NCBI GenBank assembly: GCA_041665025.1
Contig: JBAYJP010000002.1
Coordinates: forward strand, 196,820-260,819
DNA: 64,000 nt
DNA from: Candidatus Magasanikiibacteriota bacterium
Lineage (GTDB): Bacteria; Patescibacteriota; Patescibacteriia; Magasanikbacterales; UBA922
Reading direction: 5' to 3'
Shown here: one piece after another, positions 5,976 to 57,734 of the stretch
Position numbering within the stretch: position 1 is the stretch's first letter
Layout: the number at the start of each line of letters is the position of its first letter
Made by a program: the position numbers and the translations under genes
The notes under the pieces: generated by a model
The model's input: only the letters and a program-made list of their open reading frames with translations
Database searches by the model: none
What the model was told of the DNA's origin: nothing

Positions 5976-6779
5976 ATGTCACCTAGCAATCTAGAAATTT
6001 TGTATAAGTATCTTCAAAAAATCGAACACGTTTCTTATTTTGTTTTACCTGCAAAAGAGTCTGCAAATTGGGTGTTGGTTTTGAGGACATTATTTAGAAA
6101 GTTAAAAGAAGAAATTGGGAATGAAAAGCTACCCGAGTTTCAGGCTGTTTTTAATCTCTTGTGTGAAGATAGAATAAACGAATACAAATTAGCAAAAAAT
6201 TTACATAGTTTTCTTTTAAAATTATATACTAAATCCTTTGATCAATTCAGTAGTTTGCTCGATAACATAGAAAAAAGGTCACTGAATTTTTGGATGAGTG
6301 AAGAACAAGCATATAAGATGCGCATATCAAAAGAAAGGGTTCAAGTTGTCGAACATGATGTATCTCTTTTGCAAAATGAAATGCAGTTATATGCACTTGA
6401 TTATTTTTTTAGCATGCAAAAATGGTTTGCAACTTCTGATAACAAGCAGAAATTGGTACTAATTTTTTATGGGAAAAACAATTTACCTTCACTCAAGGAT
6501 GATGCATTGGAAGATGATATGCTTGACAAAGTTGTATACCAGATGTGGGATTGGAGATTGAAAGTCAAAATGGTGAATGATTATTTTGATTATAAAAAAT
6601 CTTTTGTTAACGCCAAAAAGGAACATATATCGGATAAACAGTTGGTTGAAATTGAAGAATCTCTGCGTCGTTATTGCAAACAGTTGCTTGATATATCAAT
6701 ACAACATGGAATTCAAAAAATTGAAAACGGATTACTGTTGCCATATGGAAATATATATCTAAACAAAATAATCTTATAA
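5976..6779 (+). CDS. Hypothetical protein (267 aa), apparently co-operonic with downstream methyltransferase (1-nt gap)
   Basis: Long ORF, no recognisable motifs; stop 6779 / next start 6781. Confidence 0.5.
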   Translation: MSPSNLEILYKYLQKIEHVSYFVLPAKESANWVLVLRTLFRKLKEEIGNEKLPEFQAVFNLLCEDRINEYKLAKNLHSFLLKLYTKSFDQFSSLLDNIEKRSLNFWMSEEQAYKMRISKERVQVVEHDVSLLQNEMQLYALDYFFSMQKWFATSDNKQKLVLIFYGKNNLPSLKDDALEDDMLDKVVYQMWDWRLKVKMVNDYFDYKKSFVNAKKEHISDKQLVEIEESLRRYCKQLLDISIQHGIQKIENGLLLPYGNIYLNKIIL

Positions 6780-8483: not shown

Positions 8484-8837
8484 TTAAATAAAAAAACCGC
8501 CTCGGTCACTGCTTTTCGGCTTTATTTGTTTGAGTTTAAATAAAGCGGAGGTGAGATAGATGAAAGCAGTTTGCGCTGAGACGGTCTTTTTTAACCTTCC
8601 ATACAGATCGAGTACATAGGTAGCTAATTGAAGTTGAGTAGTTTAATATCCTCCTAATCCCCATGTTTTGTGTTTGTGTTTGTATTGTAGTTTTTACATA
8701 CGATCACCTCCTCAAAATTAATGGTAAGTTAGCTTCAGGAGATGTGCAGTCCCCTTACTGATAGTATTACTCATACAAAGTTAGTATAGTATCTCTACAT
8801 AACAAGTCAATCGCACACAACCGGGAAAGTGGATAAT

Positions 8838-8937
8838 GAGTGTATATCCTATGGATAAATAAAGGATTCTATAGTTACTCCTCGGCTCGGAAAAACAAAT
8901 GTGAATTTGCTCTTCTCTCACCTGCCTCGTAAATAAA
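8838..8937 (+). repeat. ~95-nt repeat element copy A (second copy at 38075-38160, opposite strand); contains GNRA hairpin caaat-GTGA-atttg
   Basis: ~90% identity with revcomp of 38075-38160, including 'TAGTTACTCCTCGGCTCGGAAAA' and 'TTCTCTCACCTGC'; followed directly by terminator. Confidence 0.7.
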
Positions 8938-8939
8938 AA

Positions 8940-8965
8940 ATACTGAACTGATTCAGTATTTTAGT
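8940..8965. terminator. Bidirectional intrinsic terminator (aatactgaa-ctga-ttcagtatt + T-tract)
   Basis: Perfect 9-bp inverted repeat flanked by A/T tracts, between repeat element and tRNA-Leu. Confidence 0.65.
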
Positions 8966-8968
8966 GTG

Positions 8969-9052
8969 TGCCGCGGGCGGGAATCGAACCCGCACTCTCT
9001 TGCGAGAAAGGGATTTTAAGTCCCTCGTGTATACCAGTTTCACCACCGCGGC
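8969..9052 (-). tRNA. tRNA-Leu (anticodon TAA), type II with long variable arm
   Basis: Manual fold: acceptor GCCGCGG/CCGCGGC, anticodon loop CTTAAAA, variable arm hairpin TCTC-GCAA-GAGA, T-arm GCGGG-TTCGATT-CCCGC; CCA not encoded. Confidence 0.8.
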
Positions 9053-11123: not shown

Positions 11124-11163
11124 CGTAACTTTATAACTTTACAACTTTCGACTTTATAACTTC
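11124..11163 (+). repeat. Tandem heptad/octad array 'nnAACTTT' (gtaACTTTataACTTTacaACTTTcgACTTTataACTTc); related copy on opposite strand at 17424-17462
   Basis: Direct visual repeat; ~34/38 identity with revcomp of 17424-17462. Confidence 0.6.
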
Positions 11164-14456: not shown

Positions 14457-14482
14457 AGTAAAAATGGAGAATGTGATATAAT

Positions 14483-14569
14483 ATGTACGAAATGCGAAAA
14501 CTTCGAAAGGTGCGAAAATGGCGATTTCGAATTTTTCGTAGATTTCGTGTTTCGTACATACATTAAAAT
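14483..14569. repeat. Palindromic TACGAAA-repeat element (terminal IRs atgtacgaaa...tttcgtacat); family member also at 57659-57734
   Basis: 10-bp perfect terminal inverted repeat plus internal cgaaa/tttcg words; sits in 5' leader of membrane-protein gene. Confidence 0.65.
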
Positions 14570-17423: not shown

Positions 17424-17462
17424 AGTTATAAAGTTGAAAGTTGTAAAGTTATAAAGTTCGAA
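17424..17462 (-). repeat. AACTTTAT heptad array, inverted copy of 11124-11163
   Basis: revcomp = ttcgaactttataactttacaactttcaactttataac. Confidence 0.6.
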
Positions 17463-17473
17463 TTGGCAAATTG

Positions 17474-17508
17474 ATATGTGATGTGTGCTATGTGATATGT
17501 GAAATATG
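17474..17508 (-). repeat. Heptad 'nTAnCAC' repeat array (4 copies) upstream of 17576 gene
   Basis: minus strand reads tttCACatatCACatagCACacatCACatat. Confidence 0.5.
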
Positions 17509-18730: not shown

Positions 18731-18742
18731 ATATACAACATA

Positions 18743-18793
18743 TACGAACTACGAAAGGTACGAAATTACGAAAGTGGAGATTACGAAGACGAA
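18743..18793 (+). repeat. Five direct TACGAAA repeats immediately upstream of thrS promoter -35
   Basis: tacgaac-tacgaaa-ggtacgaaa-ttacgaaa-...-tacgaagacgaa. Confidence 0.6.
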
Positions 18794-26174: not shown

Positions 26175-26207
26175 ATATACAAGATATTAATTTATTTTGA
26201 ATAAATT

Positions 26208-26280
26208 TTCACATACCACATATCACGTAACACGTAACAATCGATTTGGTATGTGATATGTGCTACGTGGTACGTGACAA
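26208..26280. repeat. Inverted arrays of 7-nt 'nTAnCAC' repeats (5 + 5 copies) centred on atcgat; right arm overlaps last codons of rumA
   Basis: ttCACataCCACatatCACgtaaCACgtaaca | revcomp arm ttgtCACgtacCACgtagCACatatCACatacca. Confidence 0.6.
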
Positions 26281-27618
26281 AACCACAAGTCCTTCGATAT
26301 GCGGCGTTCTTGGGAAAAAATTATACAGTCTATGAAATACTATATCATAATTTTGCGATAACATCTCTACATCACGCGCCTGAGTTGCGAGGTCGCATGA
26401 GAGATATATGATTGTCGGCGGCAAGACTTCGTTCAATCGTTTGGCGACATCTGGGTGCAAACCAGCACGGGGCGGGTCAACAATTATCGTCTTATCAGGC
26501 GTAATATATTCAAGCATTTTTTCGGCAGGCTTGCAGTGTGCTTCGCAATTAGTAAAATTATTTAATGCGATATTTTCTTGTGCGTATTGAATTGCTTCCT
26601 CATTATTATCTACCAACATGCACGGTTGTTTTCCTTGTGAAATTGTCAGCCCGATGGAACCTACCCCCGAATAGTAGTCGACAAGGGGTATGTTTGGGTT
26701 AATAAATTTCGAGATGTCTTGCAGAGTTTGTTCAAAAATAGGGATATTGATTTGGAAGAAACTAAGGAGGCCGAATTTTAAAAATGCAGAATGATGAATG
26801 TCGAATGCAGAATTGATAGACAGTTGTGTTACAAGATAATTTTGTCCCACTAAATATAATAGTTTTGTTGGTACTGAGGCGGGTGATTTGTGCGTAGAGT
26901 AATATAGTTGAAAACCGACAAGATTATCATCAAGTTCAGGGTAATCACCAAAGGGAAGCTGGTCTTTGATAAACAATGCAGCGATAGCTTTGCCTTGCCC
27001 ATTGCTCCTCACTATAAGGCTTTTTAAACTTCGCATGGGGATTTTGTGTGTGTTGACCCACGTCAAGATATATTGTGCCGTTTTATTTATAATGTCCTCG
27101 GCAAGTTGCGAACCTATAGCAGGAATATGTACTTTTTTACCGCGTTCAAAGAATGCCAAAGAGATTTTGGATGAATCAGCAACCCCCTCTTCCATCTCCC
27201 CCTTAGAAAGGGGGAGACAGTTGAGATCTACAAAACTAAATTCCATTTTATTTCGGTAATGGAAAAAGTTTTTTGGATCAGAAATAATGTCAGGATTTGT
27301 ATTTGAAAAAATATCTCCGCCCAGTCGTTTGTATGTTTCTATTGCGATTTGTTTTTTATATTCATCTTCTTTATCTGCATTAAGCATTTGCCAAGGACTT
27401 GTGGATAGAAAATGATTATCAACGGGTTCAATACGATCTGGCGATGATTTCAATATTTTTGTAGCCACTGCTTCTGCGAAGTCTTTTTTATTTTTTATAT
27501 ACTCTATCCCGACTTCTTCACCGGGTAGAGCATTCCATACAAAAATAGCCTTCCCATCTAAATGAGCCAAACCTTGTCCTCCTGAAACTAATTTTTCTAT
27601 GATAACTGTGTGAGCCAT
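26263..27618 (-). CDS. TRAM-domain RNA (uracil-5)-methyltransferase, RumA/TrmA family (ORF extends to 27663)
   Basis: N-terminal TRAM 'MAHTVIIEKLVSGGQGLAHLDGKAIFVWNALPGEEV', 'IVDPPRAGL', 'YLSCDLATQARD'. Confidence 0.8.
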   Translation of the reverse strand: MAHTVIIEKLVSGGQGLAHLDGKAIFVWNALPGEEVGIEYIKNKKDFAEAVATKILKSSPDRIEPVDNHFLSTSPWQMLNADKEDEYKKQIAIETYKRLGGDIFSNTNPDIISDPKNFFHYRNKMEFSFVDLNCLPLSKGEMEEGVADSSKISLAFFERGKKVHIPAIGSQLAEDIINKTAQYILTWVNTHKIPMRSLKSLIVRSNGQGKAIAALFIKDQLPFGDYPELDDNLVGFQLYYSTHKSPASVPTKLLYLVGQNYLVTQLSINSAFDIHHSAFLKFGLLSFFQINIPIFEQTLQDISKFINPNIPLVDYYSGVGSIGLTISQGKQPCMLVDNNEEAIQYAQENIALNNFTNCEAHCKPAEKMLEYITPDKTIIVDPPRAGLHPDVAKRLNEVLPPTIIYLSCDLATQARDVEMLSQNYDIVFHRLYNFFPRTPHIEGLVVLSRTT

Positions 27619-37969: not shown

Positions 37970-38074
37970 AGAAAATGTGTTTCTATAGTATACAGAGAAA
38001 TCTTATTGTACCAAAAAATGTATAAAAATTATAGCCCAGTAGGGTGTGAGGTGTGATATGTAATATGTATTTTG

Positions 38075-38160
38075 TCAATATGTTTTATTTACGACGCAGG
38101 TGAGAGAAAAGTAAATTCGCATTTACTTTTCCGAGCCGAGGAGTAACTACAGGATAATAT
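38075..38160 (-). repeat. ~95-nt repeat element copy B (see 8838-8937); GNRA hairpin gtaaat-GCGA-atttac with compensatory pair change
   Basis: Hand alignment ~90% identity to copy A. Confidence 0.7.
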
Positions 38161-38285
38161 ACCTCGCAGCTTGGTGCTAAAATTAATTTTTTATAAATTA
38201 CTGTAATACCTCGTGAGCTTGCTCTGAGGATTCTTTATATAAATAAAAACACTTTTTTAGGTGTTTATTATTTATGATAGTTTTT

Positions 38286-38333
<48 letters not shown>

Positions 38334-38356
38334 ACTTTTCTCGATCACGTATAGAG

Positions 38357-38443
38357 CGGAGGGAGCGAGATTTGAACTCGCGAACCAATTTCTTGGTTAA
38401 TGCTTTTCGAGAGCACCCCATTCAACCGCTCTGGCATCCCTCC
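38357..38443 (-). tRNA. tRNA-Ser (anticodon CGA), type II
   Basis: Manual fold: acceptor GGAGGGA/TCCCTCC, discriminator G, anticodon stem GTGCT/AGCAT, loop CTCGAAA, long variable arm, T-arm GCGAG-TTCAAAT-CTCGC. Confidence 0.8.
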
Positions 38444-38551
38444 GTTCTTCTACGTGACGAGGTGGCACCTTAAACCAACTCAGACACCACTCCATGCCTG
38501 GCTATTTTAGTATAGAATTAAGACAAAATCAATGGTTAAAAAAACGGAATG

Positions 38552-45736: not shown

Positions 45737-45908
45737 GACCTCAAAGTAAAACTACCCGTGGTAGATTACCCGAGGTCGTTTGTATGGTGTGATATGTTGT
45801 AAGAATTAGTTAGGTTCATAGTGTTATAATGTATTAATACAATAATACATTTATATAATTTTGTCAAATAGGGAATGTGGATAAAAAATGACCATTTTAA
45901 TCATCTGT

Positions 45909-47631: not shown

Positions 47632-49060
47632 GCAAGGTTAATATTTCCTTTAACGTCTTTTTGGAAATTCCACCTATACCTACGAGTACAAGACCATATA
47701 CCAATATACCTATGAGTATAAGTGTGAGAACGTGCAAATTTTGTAATAAAAATAAGACTGACCCCATGGCTATACTTGCTAATGCAATTTTTACAAATGT
47801 TTTTAATTGCACCTGTTCTTTACTGTAGTATTTTATGGTAATAAATAGAAGCAGTCCTGCGTACCATTCAGAAAAGACCGTCATCCATGCGGCGCCAGAC
47901 AATCCGTAGCGTGGAATAAATATGAGGTAGCCAATTAATGTAATAATTGCATCTGAAATATAAATCCACATAGTTTGTTTTTGCCGGTTTATTGCAACAG
48001 CCACGTGTCCAAATACACCTCCCACAAATACGCCAAGAACCGCAAGCGAAAGAATTTGAAGTATGTTTCCCGCGTCAGTAAAATTATTACCAGCCACGAG
48101 GCGCATAATTTTTGTGGATAGTATTGCCATTCCTACGGTTGTCGGGATTGCAATAAGCATCATAGAGTCAAATGACATTTGGTAGCGATGTCTGAAATCT
48201 TCTCTGTGGTTGCGCGACCATGAATATGCCAGGAGCGGCAACATGACACCCATGATCATCATTGCCATTTGTGCGATGATATCAATCACACGATACGCCG
48301 CTCCATACATCCCAACTTCTGCTTGCGAGCGCATGACCGTCAAAATAAGCGTGTCGCCCTTGAGATACACGACGTTGAAAATAATGGAAATAGTAATGGG
48401 CCACATTTTATGCGTGATGGATTTCCATATTTGTTTGTCATATGCAAAACCGAGAGGGGTCTCTCTGTGTGTAAAAATGAGCAAGGCTAATGTGTACACC
48501 ATACTTGCCAATGTGACTATACCCATGATTGGCAGAAAACCTAAGCCCTTTGTAATAACCAAGTATAAGCCAGCAACCAAAGCAATTCTTCCGATATTTT
48601 CGGCAATGGTCTGTATGTGCATTTTGAGCCGTGATTGAAATAGGCCGGTGATAACTTGATTTATAGAAATGCACAAAAAAGAAATAGTGGTAAAGCTTAT
48701 CGCAATTTTTACTTCAAGAGGATACGGAAAAAACCAGGCAACAAATGGTGTTATTCCTAGAAAAATAAGAGCAGTAACCAGGCGATAGGTAAGTAAATTT
48801 TTGAATAAAAATTGTTTATCAAAATTAGGTTCGCTCATCATTTGGGCTGTCACTGGGATAAGGCCAAAATCTATTAATATGCCGATAAATTGCAGAAATG
48901 TAATCACGGTTATATACCACCCAAACTGTTCAGTGCCCAAATAGCGGGTCATCATGCCGATAGCCAATAAACCAAAAAATGTGGAAATGACTTTTCCTAC
49001 AAGTTGATATATGGTGTTGTGGGCGACTTGGCGGGTGAGAGACATGTTGGCACGTAACAC
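47624..49060 (-). CDS. Polysaccharide/lipid-linked oligosaccharide flippase (Wzx/MOP superfamily)
   Basis: 478 aa, 12-14 TM helices typical of MOP flippases. Confidence 0.65.
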   Translation of the reverse strand: MLRANMSLTRQVAHNTIYQLVGKVISTFFGLLAIGMMTRYLGTEQFGWYITVITFLQFIGILIDFGLIPVTAQMMSEPNFDKQFLFKNLLTYRLVTALIFLGITPFVAWFFPYPLEVKIAISFTTISFLCISINQVITGLFQSRLKMHIQTIAENIGRIALVAGLYLVITKGLGFLPIMGIVTLASMVYTLALLIFTHRETPLGFAYDKQIWKSITHKMWPITISIIFNVVYLKGDTLILTVMRSQAEVGMYGAAYRVIDIIAQMAMMIMGVMLPLLAYSWSRNHREDFRHRYQMSFDSMMLIAIPTTVGMAILSTKIMRLVAGNNFTDAGNILQILSLAVLGVFVGGVFGHVAVAINRQKQTMWIYISDAIITLIGYLIFIPRYGLSGAAWMTVFSEWYAGLLLFITIKYYSKEQVQLKTFVKIALASIAMGSVLFLLQNLHVLTLILIGILVYGLVLVGIGGISKKTLKEILTLHG

Positions 49061-49130
49061 ATAGCACTTAACACATTTGAAAAATTTAAATAATTGTTAC
49101 GTGATATGTGTTACGTGCTACGTGATACAG
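49045..49130. repeat. Inverted arrays of 'nTAnCAC' heptads in divergent promoter region
   Basis: plus gtaaCACatagCACttaaCAC; minus tatCACgtagCACgtaaCACatatCACgtaaca. Confidence 0.6.
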
Positions 49131-49211
49131 TGTAGCATTTTTGGCTAAGAATAGCAACTAATTGAAAGCAGGATTTGCATATGATATACTGTGTGTATTA
49201 ACTGATTTTTT

Positions 49212-57658: not shown

Positions 57659-57734
57659 ATGTACGAAATACGAAAAATACGAAAGTACGAAAAATATTAT
57701 TTCGGATATTTCGCAGCTTTCGTATTTCGAACAT
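57659..57734. repeat. Palindromic TACGAAA-repeat element (IRs atgtacgaaatacgaaa / tttcgtatttcgaacat) 12 nt upstream of rpoB ATG
   Basis: 17-bp terminal inverted repeat (1 mismatch); same terminal words as 14483-14569. Confidence 0.65.

What the first reader, a model, noticed from the sequence alone, without database searches (positions are those of the whole stretch)
8838..8965. Novel ~95-nt repeat element with a GNRA-hairpin showing compensatory covariation, found next to tRNA genes (copy A; copy B at 38075-38160)
The two copies are ~90% identical but differ by paired substitutions inside a hairpin: A = c-aaat-GUGA-attt-g, B = gt-aaat-GCGA-attt-ac. This gives a C-G to U-A switch, a gained outer G-C pair, and both loops are GNRA. 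That pattern supports a conserved RNA secondary structure rather than a mere DNA repeat. Copy A is followed 3 nt later by a strong intrinsic terminator, consistent with a small transcript ending there. It lies ~35 nt from tRNA-Leu. Copy B sits in the leader/promoter region of the MFS gene, ~125-200 nt from tRNA-Ser and the tRNA fragment. Conserved blocks are TAGTTACTCCTCGGCTCGGAAAA and TTCTCTCACCTGC(C/G)TCGTAAATAAAA.
Basis: seen in the sequence. Interest (0 to 1): 0.65.

Follow-up and report, generated by a model that had tools for sequence, protein, structure and literature searches.

The report
Conserved structured repeat element of Patescibacteria
The two 80-nt repeats are real and belong to an uncatalogued hairpin-forming element found in many candidate-phyla-radiation (Patescibacteria) genomes, at roughly ten copies per genome by rough extrapolation; its stems keep pairing through compensatory changes, but its function is unknown.

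Summary
The repeat is real: 81 nt, 88% identical, in inverted orientation, and never seen in shuffles. It is not a private two-copy repeat. It found none in IMG/VR. A covariance model scores the two window copies at 61.5 and 54.5 bits and finds no third copy.

Across 109 distinct copies, 94% of cells pair and 16 of 22 pairs show compensatory double changes. The core is an irregular hairpin: a 5-bp P1, then GACGUAGAGCGAG opposite CGAGCCGAGGAG, then a variable P2. A variable 3' domain (P3) follows.

No Rfam 15 family matches.
- The likely functional strand of copy A is the opposite, purine-rich one.
- The GNRA loop is not a family feature.
- The link to tRNA genes is not general.

Orientation relative to neighbouring genes is random, and no protein gene travels with the element. 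Tandem arrays occur, and one copy lies inside a 23S rRNA gene.

Best reading: an interspersed, protein-recognised RNA module that behaves like bcr1 or ERIC repeats and rRNA intervening sequences. Its function is unproven.

The parts
8868..8939 (-). Copy A, conserved core: 5' UUUAU leader, P1 (UUUAC/GUAAC), 5' block GAGGCAGGUGAGAGAA, P2 hairpin of 11 bp with loop UCAC, 3' block UUCCGAGCCGAGGAG
   Evidence: Covariance model R1 scores 54.5 bits, E 3e-16, over the full model length. The minus strand folds with z -2.55.
8850..8867 (-). Copy A, minimal 3' domain (P3) and tail: CUAUAGAAUCCUUUAUUUAU. Coordinates are approximate.
   Evidence: Read and compared with the short-P3 family members L095, L123 and L025, which end in ...CCUUUAU(U).
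8937..8962 (-). AT-rich 11-bp hairpin between tRNA-Leu and copy A. On the minus strand its U-run runs into the element's 5' UUUAUU leader. It is context, not part of the repeat.
   Evidence: The fold shows it. The terminator scan did not call it because it has only 2 G-C pairs.
8968..9052 (-). tRNA-Leu(UAA), on the same strand as copy A and directly upstream of it. A sigma-70-like promoter lies at 9101->9073.
38082..38153 (+). Copy B, conserved core (same parts as copy A; P2 loop UCGC)
   Evidence: Covariance model R1 scores 61.5 bits, E 1e-18. The plus strand folds with z -2.44.
38154..38241 (+). Copy B, long 3' domain (P3): ACAGGAU ... two 'AAUACCUCG..' hairpins ... GAGGAUUCUUUAUAU. The end coordinate is approximate.
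   Evidence: Read. The layout matches L121, L042 and L024 (AUACAGGUUC..AAUACCUCG..hairpin..GUAAUACCUCGU.AGCU.UGCU..GAGGAACCUUUAU).
38238..38277 (.). AU-rich hairpin abutting the 3' end of copy B. On the minus strand it follows the tRNA-Ser genes and is itself followed by UUUUUAUUUAU. It is context, not part of the repeat.
   Evidence: Fold; sequence.

Best explanation
The two repeats are members of an uncatalogued family of dispersed elements, about 90-200 nt long, found across Patescibacteria. The source contig is labelled Candidatus Magasanikbacteria. On the purine-rich strand each copy folds into an irregular rod. From the outside in, the rod consists of: a 5-bp P1 that always closes with C-G; then GACGUAGA opposite CGAGGA; then two fixed pairs (G-C, C/U-G); then a CGAG/CGAG box, inferred to be a tandem sheared G.A motif; then G-C; then a one-base bulge; then a P2 stem whose sequence and length vary freely. 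A 3' domain (P3) follows. P3 can be a tiny hairpin, a junction of 2-3 'AAUACCUCG...' hairpins, or in one case a whole tRNA. The element is bounded by UUUAU-type runs on both sides. Shown: the family exists, the stems covary, the blocks are conserved, there are several copies per genome, tandem arrays occur, and neither gene linkage nor orientation linkage exists. Inferred: the near-invariant, non-complementary purine blocks form a recognition surface for a conserved protein or RNase. On this reading the element acts at the RNA level within whatever transcript carries it, including mRNA ends, tRNA co-transcripts and at least one 23S precursor. There it would serve as a processing or stability mark, in the manner of rRNA intervening sequences. 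It would multiply within genomes by duplication or mobilisation, as bcr1- and ERIC-type interspersed repeats do.
For: Structure: a gapless MAFFT alignment of 53 copies gives 13 of 22 pairs with double changes and a covariation score of 0.383, against 0.158 for shuffles (0 of 500 reached it) and at most 0.12 for slid registers. The model-based alignment of 109 copies gives 94.3% paired cells, 16 of 22 pairs and a score of 0.421 against 0.144.
Conservation outside the search pattern: positions G12-G18 (GACGUAG) and G65 were not in the pattern, yet they are at least 90% conserved; C11, also outside the pattern, is invariant.
Core pairs: copies found only by the model, which do not fit the pattern, keep CGAGCCGAGGAG and show extra core covariation. 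Examples are G-C to A-U in L036, and GAA/UUC changing to GCC/GGC, GUC/GAC or UCC/GGA.
Strand: both conserved blocks are purine-rich on the same strand (G+A 752 of 981 and 660 of 768). The window copies fold better on that strand. In five of six cases next to stable RNA genes the element has the same orientation, including one copy inside a 23S rRNA gene (L103:4755-4814).
Repeat-like behaviour: there are 2 copies in this 64-kb window, and further copies in about 10 of about 125 loci, including tandem pairs and one triple. Copies A and B share a 1-nt deletion and a P1 sequence that, on my reading of the instance list and the model alignment, no other listed copy has. The two L085 copies are nearly identical. 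23% of copies sit directly after a same-strand terminator hairpin, against 3% of random positions.
Not gene-linked: orientation relative to neighbours is same/same 37, opposite/opposite 28, mixed 24. No neighbouring protein family occurs in more than 5 of 127 loci.
Literature: CPR rRNA genes are reported to hold many short, uncharacterised insertions without ORFs that are suspected to be RNase III-excised intervening sequences (PMC11270868). bcr1 is flanked by TTTAT and keeps an RNA fold through compensatory changes (PMC3184786, PMC6542083).
Against: There are no expression data, so RNA-level function and strand are inferred. Across the family, G.U pairs are not significantly commoner than A.C pairs on the proposed strand (51 against 40, p=0.29). 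About 40% of copies that lie between co-directional genes are antisense to them, so they cannot act within those mRNAs in the purine-rich sense. No conserved promoter lies at a fixed distance upstream. No partner protein was identified. No presence/absence polymorphism was found that would prove mobility. Elements lie at similar positions upstream of tuf and of prfA in genomes whose proteins are only 50-76% identical, which fits long vertical retention at least as well as mobility. The invariance of part of the core is forced by the search patterns used. The ORF calls behind the context statistics are a crude longest-ORF heuristic. The 23S case is a single contig that ends 34 nt after the element.
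Confidence: 0.4

Rival explanations
1. These are free-standing, multi-copy small RNA genes acting in trans. The conserved rod would be the scaffold or decoy for a conserved protein, with P2 and P3 free to vary. The RNA would be transcribed from its own promoter at a variable distance, or excised from longer transcripts.
For: Orientation is independent of neighbouring genes. Copy B is antisense to both neighbours, so it needs its own transcription. Tandem arrays of 2-3 cores resemble sponge or multi-site RNAs. A conserved core with variable periphery is typical of RNP RNAs.
Against: There is no positional promoter signal upstream; information stays below about 0.15 bit per position beyond -5. 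No + strand promoter is predicted upstream of copy B. Many copies start within a few nt of a same-strand terminator. Many lack a canonical terminator of their own.
Confidence: 0.2
2. This is a purely selfish, non-autonomous mobile DNA element. Its strand-specific fold, as single-stranded DNA, would be the substrate of a transposase or recombinase (HUH/RAYT- or IS200/IS605-like, or the unknown bcr1-type mechanism). It would target TTTAT-like runs such as terminator T-tracts, with no host function.
For: Orientation is random and the element sits in intergenic 'safe' spots between terminators and promoters. UUUAU/UUUAC runs occur at both ends and co-vary as direct repeats. Tandem and nested copies occur, including one in 23S and one with a tRNA inside P3. 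Copies within a genome share derived characters. A conserved GUAG lies 5' of the inner hairpin, as in GTAG-tagged REPs (PMC3733652). None of the three related Magasanikbacteria loci (66 kb) has a copy.
Against: The conserved blocks are not inverted repeats of each other, so there are no TIRs. No transposase-like family is enriched nearby. No empty site was found. The end repeats are equally explained by both ends pairing with the same AAUA segment. The core is conserved across many species, with compensatory change at syntenic sites. About 10 copies per genome is low for REPs.
Confidence: 0.2
3. This is a new self-cleaving ribozyme class. Conserved loop nucleotides flanked by covarying helices, many copies, and no gene linkage would all fit.
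For: The architecture and distribution resemble those of twister, hammerhead and pistol-type motifs: conserved junction and loop nucleotides with variable stems, dispersal in either orientation, and tandem copies.
Against: No known ribozyme model matches. No cleavage-site logic can be derived from the sequence. The rod-like fold has no evident junction or pseudoknot to build an active site.
Confidence: 0.07
4. One reading: a small structured RNA on the + strand at copy A, with a GNRA hairpin, ending at the downstream terminator and functionally tied to tRNA loci. A variant: copy B is a regulatory leader or riboswitch of the MFS gene.
For: Both window copies lie within 22-200 nt of tRNA genes. 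On that strand both loops read GNRA.
Against: tRNA adjacency holds in 3 of about 120 other loci. Downstream genes are unrelated housekeeping genes, in either orientation. Copy B points away from the MFS gene.
Confidence: 0.05

Closest known systems
bcr1 (group A interspersed repeats of the Bacillus cereus group)
   Same: About 150-nt dispersed intergenic element in either orientation, tens of copies per genome, flanked by TTTAT-type direct repeats, transcribed, with an RNA-level fold kept by compensatory changes and an unknown mobilising enzyme (PMC3184786, PMC6542083). The window element has UUUAU(U) at both ends and covarying stems.
   Different: bcr1 is confined to one species group and its distribution differs between close strains. 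The element here is shared by many Patescibacteria species and has near-invariant, non-complementary purine blocks inside the hairpin. Mobility is not demonstrated. Sequence relatedness to bcr1 was not tested.
ERIC (enterobacterial repetitive intergenic consensus) and similar MITE-like repeats (Correia, RUP)
   Same: Imperfect-palindrome intergenic repeats found in both orientations, co-transcribed with neighbouring genes, able to alter mRNA processing or stability (RNase E site, PMC3184786), and with internal insertion variants.
   Different: Those elements are true inverted repeats (TIRs) with TA duplications. Here the conserved blocks are purine-rich on both arms of one strand, so the element is strand-asymmetric like a folded RNA, and its terminal stem (P1) covaries instead of being conserved.
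23S rRNA intervening sequences and the short, ORF-less, non-intron insertions reported in CPR rRNA genes
   Same: One family member lies in sense orientation inside the 5' domain of a 23S rRNA gene (L103:4755-4814). It is a long irregular hairpin of the size class (<250 nt) described as 'uncharacterized' and probably RNase III-excised (PMC11270868).
   Different: Nearly all copies are outside rRNA genes. Excision is untested. The published survey did not describe a dispersed genomic family or this consensus.
REP / REPIN elements with RAYT transposases (GTAG- or CGTC-tagged palindromes)
   Same: Extragenic hairpins often sit just after genes and terminators. A conserved GUAG tetranucleotide lies 5' of the inner hairpin (PMC3733652).
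   Different: REPs are 20-40 bp, G+C-rich, conserved in sequence within a genome and present in hundreds of copies. Here the stems are long, A+U-rich and variable in sequence, and copies number about ten. No RAYT gene was seen or specifically searched for.
Orphan structured RNA motifs of Rfam (multi-copy motifs of unknown function) and protein-binding rods such as SRP RNA domain IV
   Same: A hairpin with two conserved internal loops, covarying stems and a variable tip; tandem G.A-type loops are typical protein-binding sites (established knowledge).
   Different: No Rfam model matches. The element is multi-copy and not tied to any gene.

Membership tests
Any Rfam 15 family (including known ribozymes and riboswitches) | Covariance-model match at the gathering score, or at least a suggestive E-value, on the element | tested here: not met
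   There was no hit on either copy at gathering score or at E<=10. There was none on family members at E<=1 or at gathering score.
Riboswitch / cis-regulatory 5' leader | Fixed orientation directly upstream of a coherent set of genes | tested here: not met
   Downstream genes are on the same strand in 56 cases and the opposite strand in 50. The cross-table is same/same 37, opposite/opposite 28, mixed 24. Neighbours are unrelated housekeeping genes.
MITE | Conserved terminal inverted repeats | tested here: not met
   The conserved blocks (GACGUAGAGCGAG and CGAGCCGAGGAG) are both purine-rich on one strand and are not complementary. The terminal stem P1 covaries rather than being conserved.
MITE | Target-site duplication and presence/absence polymorphism between close strains | tested here: inconclusive
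   UUUAU/UUUAC occurs at both ends, but pairing of both ends with the same AAUA segment explains this equally well. All contig pairs with alignable flanks were at least 98.7% identical and both members carried the element.
bcr1-type repeat | TTTAT motif at the element boundaries | tested here: met
   At the 5' boundary, T/T/T/A/T occur at 69/92/88/93/88%. The 3' ends read ...CCUUUAU(U)...CUAUAU(U) or ...GGUUUAC in most full-length copies (read by eye).
bcr1-type repeat | RNA-level fold kept by compensatory changes | tested here: met
bcr1-type repeat | Sequence homology to bcr1 and restriction to the B. cereus group | not tested
The hosts here are Patescibacteria.
REP/REPIN-RAYT | 20-40-bp G+C-rich palindrome with a GTAG/CGTC tag, hundreds of copies, and a RAYT gene in the genome | tested here: not met
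   GUAG is present 5' of the inner hairpin. However, the palindrome is about 50 nt, A+U-rich and variable in sequence, and copies are about one per 60-120 kb. The RAYT gene was not specifically searched for.
23S rRNA intervening sequence (RNase III-excised) | Insertion in a 23S helix that is excised from the precursor | tested here: inconclusive
   One copy lies in sense orientation inside a 23S 5' domain (L103), but the contig ends 34 nt later. Excision cannot be tested with these tools.
Kink-turn | C-stem, 3-nt bulge, tandem G.A/A.G, NC-stem, with an uninterrupted opposite strand | tested here: not met
   The 3' strand fits (GCC-GAG-GA-G). The 5' strand carries 5-6 extra conserved nucleotides (CGUAG[A]) between the GA and the C-stem (read).
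   A tRNA lies within 150 nt in 3 of about 120 loci (L054, L096, L127), in addition to the two window copies.

The most novel reading that the evidence does not exclude
The element is a new class of functional RNA specific to Patescibacteria. It could be a multi-copy RNP scaffold or a catalytic/processing RNA that punctuates transcripts (mRNA, tRNA and rRNA precursors) in organisms with minimal genomes and a reduced RNase and regulator repertoire. Its modular P3 domain, which can even carry a tRNA, and its core would then define a previously unknown RNA-processing system.
Probability: 0.15. Interest if true: 0.85.

Novelty: new variant of a known kind. Interest (0 to 1): 0.62.

Why it matters
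Patescibacteria have genomes of about 1 Mb under strong reductive pressure, few known regulators and no cultured model for most lineages. A 90-200-nt element kept at roughly ten copies per genome (a rough extrapolation) across many species is unlikely to be neutral, given its near-invariant loop nucleotides and stems maintained by compensatory change. It is either a conserved RNA-protein recognition module, which would give a handle on RNA processing and stability in these organisms and on the unexplained short insertions in their rRNA genes, or an unusually ancient selfish replicator. Either way it gives a defined, testable RNA family. The consensus and covariance model are in hand for Rfam-type curation, metatranscriptome mapping and partner-protein profiling. 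It also explains some contig breaks and unannotated intergenic conservation in CPR assemblies.

Tried and rejected
- Rfam explanation: no match in the gathering scan of the window or in E<=10 scans of both loci and of family members.
- Riboswitch or leader of the MFS gene or other genes: rejected on orientation statistics and the diversity of neighbouring genes.
- tRNA linkage: ARAGORN on 120 loci shows it is not general.
- Phage or viral origin: 0 hits in IMG/VR.
- A co-travelling protein gene: all-against-all clustering of 761 neighbouring ORFs gave no family present in more than 5 loci.
- Strand assignment from wobble pairs: not significant at the family level, so the strand call rests on other evidence.
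- Orthologous-locus comparison in relatives of the source genome: FtsH relatives (75-80% identical) are not syntenic upstream and carry no copy in 66 kb. The best MFS homologue is only 60% identical, so this route was dropped.
- Empty-site or insertion-polymorphism search among fetched loci: only near-identical pairs aligned, so it was uninformative.
- Automatic delimitation of the 3' (P3) end: two scripts gave noisy long-range pairings, and I relied on reading.
- Coding potential: P2 length varies out of frame and the core contains stop codons, so a small-peptide reading was rejected.
- MAFFT alignment that included the window copies misplaced their 1-nt deletion. This was solved by building the model from gapless 75-nt members and aligning everything else to it.
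- Literature: no description was found in the held library.

Full report
OBSERVATION. The repeat is real. The arms at 8866-8946 and 38075-38155 are 81 nt long and 88% complementary, so the two copies are inverted relative to each other and lie 29 kb apart (alignment).

STRAND AND FOLD OF THE WINDOW COPIES. On the opposite strand (A on minus, B on plus) the hairpin is an 11-bp stem in both copies. Folding energies agree. Copy A gives -18.3 kcal/mol (z -2.55) on the minus strand against -6.2 (z +0.36) on the plus strand. Copy B gives -19.6 (z -2.44) on the plus strand against -14.5 (z -1.98) on the minus strand. On this strand the loops read UCAC and UCGC, not GNRA.

A LARGE FAMILY. A gapped pattern built from the two blocks hit 7 species-representative genomes in GTDB, labelled Minisyncoccia, Paceibacterota, Patescibacteria group or simply 'bacterium'. 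It hit none in IMG/VR. Two G+C-rich hits (L010, L074) lack every other feature and are chance matches. The source of the window is a 440-kb ENA contig whose proteins NCBI labels Candidatus Magasanikbacteria.

The consensus, read, is: UUUAUUAGC GACGUAGAGCGAGAGAA [variable hairpin P2] UUCCGAGCCGAGGA GCUAAUA.

Part of this invariance was forced by my patterns. Positions G12-G18 (GACGUAG) and G65 were not in the pattern, yet they are at least 90% conserved in a gapless alignment of 53 members, and C11 (also outside the pattern) is invariant.

COVARIATION. On the gapless MAFFT alignment, which is not fitted to any structure, 89.7% of cells pair. Thirteen of 22 pairs show changes on both sides (141 cells). 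The covariation score is 0.383, against 0.158 +/- 0.010 for shuffles (0 of 500 reached it) and at most 0.12 for registers slid by 1-3 columns.

I built covariance model R1 from this alignment. Run with filters off, it finds exactly two hits in the window: 38082-38153 on the plus strand at 61.5 bits, and 8868-8939 on the minus strand at 54.5 bits. The next hit scores 12 bits.

Aligning 109 distinct matches to the model gives 94.3% paired cells, 16 of 22 pairs with double changes (312 cells) and a score of 0.421 against 0.144. The P1-closing C-G is invariant (109 of 109). The two outermost P1 pairs do not covary, so P1 is effectively 5 bp.

Copies that the model found but that do not fit my pattern give less biased information on the core:
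- G20-C58 becomes A-U in L036.
- The GAA/UUC base of P2 becomes GCC/GGC (L044), GUC/GAC (L087, L103) or UCC/GGA (L103).
- The one-base bulge persists as A or C.
- CGAGCCGAGGAG stays almost unchanged.

I infer, but have not shown, two things about the core. First, CGAG opposite CGAG forms a tandem sheared G.A box. Second, C-GA-C opposite G-GA-G next to P1 forms a second such box. Together they would give a continuous irregular rod of roughly 30 base-pair equivalents.

FULL ELEMENT AND ITS VARIANTS (read). After P1 comes a P3 stem, for example AUAUAGUCC...GGACUAUAU or AUAUAGGUUC...GGAACCUUUAU. P3 can enclose:
- almost nothing (copy A, L095);
- two or three hairpins of the type AAUACCUCGnnGCUUGCnnCGAGG, plus a central GAAC-GAGCGAAGCGA-GUUC hairpin that again contains two CGAG boxes (copy B is a degenerate example);
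- in L127, a complete tRNA-Ile(UAU) held in a 19-bp stem.

Other variants occur:
- Some members carry a roughly 90-nt insert within the 3' block, after CCGAGCCGAGG (L047, L087, L103, L032).
- Tandem arrays exist in L036, L044 and L087, and a triple array in L103.
- One copy lies in sense orientation inside the 5' domain of a 23S rRNA gene (L103:4755-4814). Rfam's LSU model aligns across it only with low posterior probability, which indicates an insertion. That contig ends 34 nt later, so this is a single, unverified case.

Both ends of the element carry UUUAU or UUUAC. The 5' boundary is sharp, with T/T/T/A/T at 69/92/88/93/88% and no information further upstream.

GENOMIC BEHAVIOUR. Using a crude longest-ORF gene call, orientation relative to neighbours is random. 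The upstream gene is on the same strand in 59 cases and the opposite strand in 52. The downstream gene is on the same strand in 56 and the opposite in 50. The cross-table is same/same 37, opposite/opposite 28 and mixed 24. I checked by hand that L071 really is antisense between two genuine genes.

Other context findings:
- No neighbouring protein family recurs in more than 5 of 127 loci.
- Elements do lie upstream of tuf in two genomes (EF-Tu 76% identical) and about 500 nt upstream of prfA in three genomes (RF1 about 50% identical), once in inverted orientation.
- tRNA proximity is not general: 3 of about 120 loci have a tRNA within 150 nt.
- Next to stable RNA genes the element shares their orientation in 5 of 6 cases (copy A, L054, L096, L127 and the L103 23S; copy B is the exception).
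- 23% of copies begin within 22 nt of a same-strand terminator-like hairpin, against 3% of random positions. The random control includes coding sequence, so the enrichment is overstated.
- No promoter signal sits at a fixed distance upstream, and no + strand promoter is predicted upstream of copy B.
- Each locus was fetched because of one match. Further copies appeared in about 10 loci out of roughly 900 kb searched, and the window has 2 copies in 64 kb. This suggests on the order of ten copies per 1-Mb genome.
- Three loci from the nearest Magasanikbacteria relatives (66 kb) have none.
- Copies within one genome share derived characters. A and B share a 1-nt deletion (GCA-GG) and the P1 sequence UUUAC/GUAAC, which, on my reading of the instance list and the model alignment, no other listed copy has. 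The two L085 copies are nearly identical, and L084's two copies share their P2.

In the window, both copies sit between the terminator hairpin of a minus-strand tRNA gene and the next minus-strand promoter. Copy A is in sense orientation there and copy B is antisense.

WHAT IT IS NOT.
- Not any Rfam 15 family.
- Not a riboswitch or leader, given orientation and gene diversity.
- Not tRNA-specific.
- Not phage-borne in IMG/VR.
- Not a classical MITE or REP. The two conserved blocks are both purine-rich on the same strand and are not reverse complements, while the terminal stem covaries instead of being conserved.
- Not a kink-turn in the strict sense. The 3' strand fits, but the 5' strand has 5-6 extra conserved nucleotides.

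HOW IT MOST LIKELY WORKS. A strand-asymmetric fold with near-invariant loop purines and freely covarying stems is the signature of a single-stranded nucleic acid recognised by a conserved partner. The better fold on the purine strand, the G.A boxes that can only form on that strand, and the sense orientation in a 23S gene and beside tRNAs make RNA on the purine-rich strand the most likely active form (about 0.7).

I therefore favour an RNA module recognised by a protein or RNase, carried in many transcripts and acting as a processing or stability mark. It would resemble the short insertions in CPR rRNA genes that are suspected to be RNase III-excised intervening sequences (PMC11270868). It would multiply in the genome in the manner of bcr1 or ERIC repeats, which are TTTAT-flanked, transcribed and maintained by compensatory changes (PMC3184786, PMC6542083).

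This reading is weakened by four things: the 28 copies antisense to both neighbours, the lack of G.U over A.C asymmetry across the family (51 against 40, p=0.29), the absence of any expression data, and the absence of an identified partner. The rivals are free-standing trans-acting sRNA genes, a purely selfish ssDNA or DNA element, and a new self-cleaving ribozyme. All remain open.

NOVELTY AND VERDICT. Within the tools and the held literature this family is undescribed. In behaviour it is closest to known interspersed structured repeats. It differs from them in its phylum-scale conservation, its non-palindromic invariant core, its modular 3' domain and its occurrence in an rRNA gene. The strand, the GNRA loop, the terminator and the tRNA linkage do not hold for the family.

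CAVEATS.
- The family was collected with sequence patterns, so the diversity of the core is under-sampled.
- Gene calls are heuristic.
- 3' boundaries were read by eye.
- The E-values of R1 are rough because calibration was shortened.

Noticed in passing
window 38288-38476 (- strand): This looks like a tRNA inside a tRNA. The called tRNA-Ser(CGA) at 38356-38443 sits, with complementary flanks (UCACGUA/UACGUGA), inside the anticodon loop of a second tRNA-Ser(CGA)-like gene. Joining ...GCCACCUCG to AAAGUGGUG... by hand, that is, removing a 131-nt insert between positions 35 and 36, gives a cloverleaf that ARAGORN calls tRNA-Ser(CGA), with an encoded CCA. Position 35/36 is the unusual intron site reported for Patescibacteria tRNA-Asn and tRNA-Asp (PMC13011429), but this insert is far too short to be a group I intron. 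It could be a disrupted pseudogene with a replacement copy, or a new kind of tRNA insertion.
   Followed up: partly
window 8490-8776 (- strand): An orphan transcription unit of about 285 nt lies between copy A and the cob(I)alamin adenosyltransferase gene. It has a good sigma-70-like promoter (TTGACT-16-TATACT, 8810->8783) and a terminator (8507-8495). It has no Rfam match at E<=10 and only a doubtful 42-aa ORF (8536-8664). It may be an unknown small RNA or small protein gene.
   Followed up: partly
window 14482-14560, 57659-57734, 18740-18766; 11127-11161 and 17424-17458; 26190-26300 and 49030-49140; 38045-38071, 17477-17503, 45781-45807: Several intergenic regions carry palindromic arrays of short words: TACGAAA/TTTCGTA, AACTTTATAAC, CACGTAAC/GTTACGTG and GTGATATGTG. 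They recur at different loci, including the promoter region of the MFS gene next to copy B. They may be operator or promoter arrays; the region encodes TrmB-family regulators.
   Followed up: no
L103:4755-4814 and L103:1446-1740: In one metagenome contig, a copy of the element lies in sense orientation inside the 5' domain of a 23S rRNA gene, and the contig ends 34 nt later. The same contig has three cores in direct tandem after a gene terminator, the third carrying a roughly 90-nt insert in its 3' block.
   Followed up: partly
L127:10262-10429 (- strand): A complete tRNA-Ile(UAU) gene is embedded in a perfect 19-bp stem that takes the place of the element's P3 domain, directly after the conserved core. 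A further T-arm-like sequence follows.
   Followed up: no
L105:1699-1771 and 6275-6347: Two copies of the element share identical flanks on both sides over tens of bases, 4.5 kb apart. This suggests a larger segmental duplication rather than two separate insertions. A third, divergent copy with a very long P2 lies at 8523-8638.
   Followed up: no
L005:2108-2281: ARAGORN calls a tRNA with anticodon UCA (reported as 'SeC') next to an odd tRNA with a 2-base anticodon. The 886-kb chromosome is labelled Gammaproteobacteria. The element, the small genome size and a possible UGA-reading tRNA suggest that the label is wrong.
   Followed up: no
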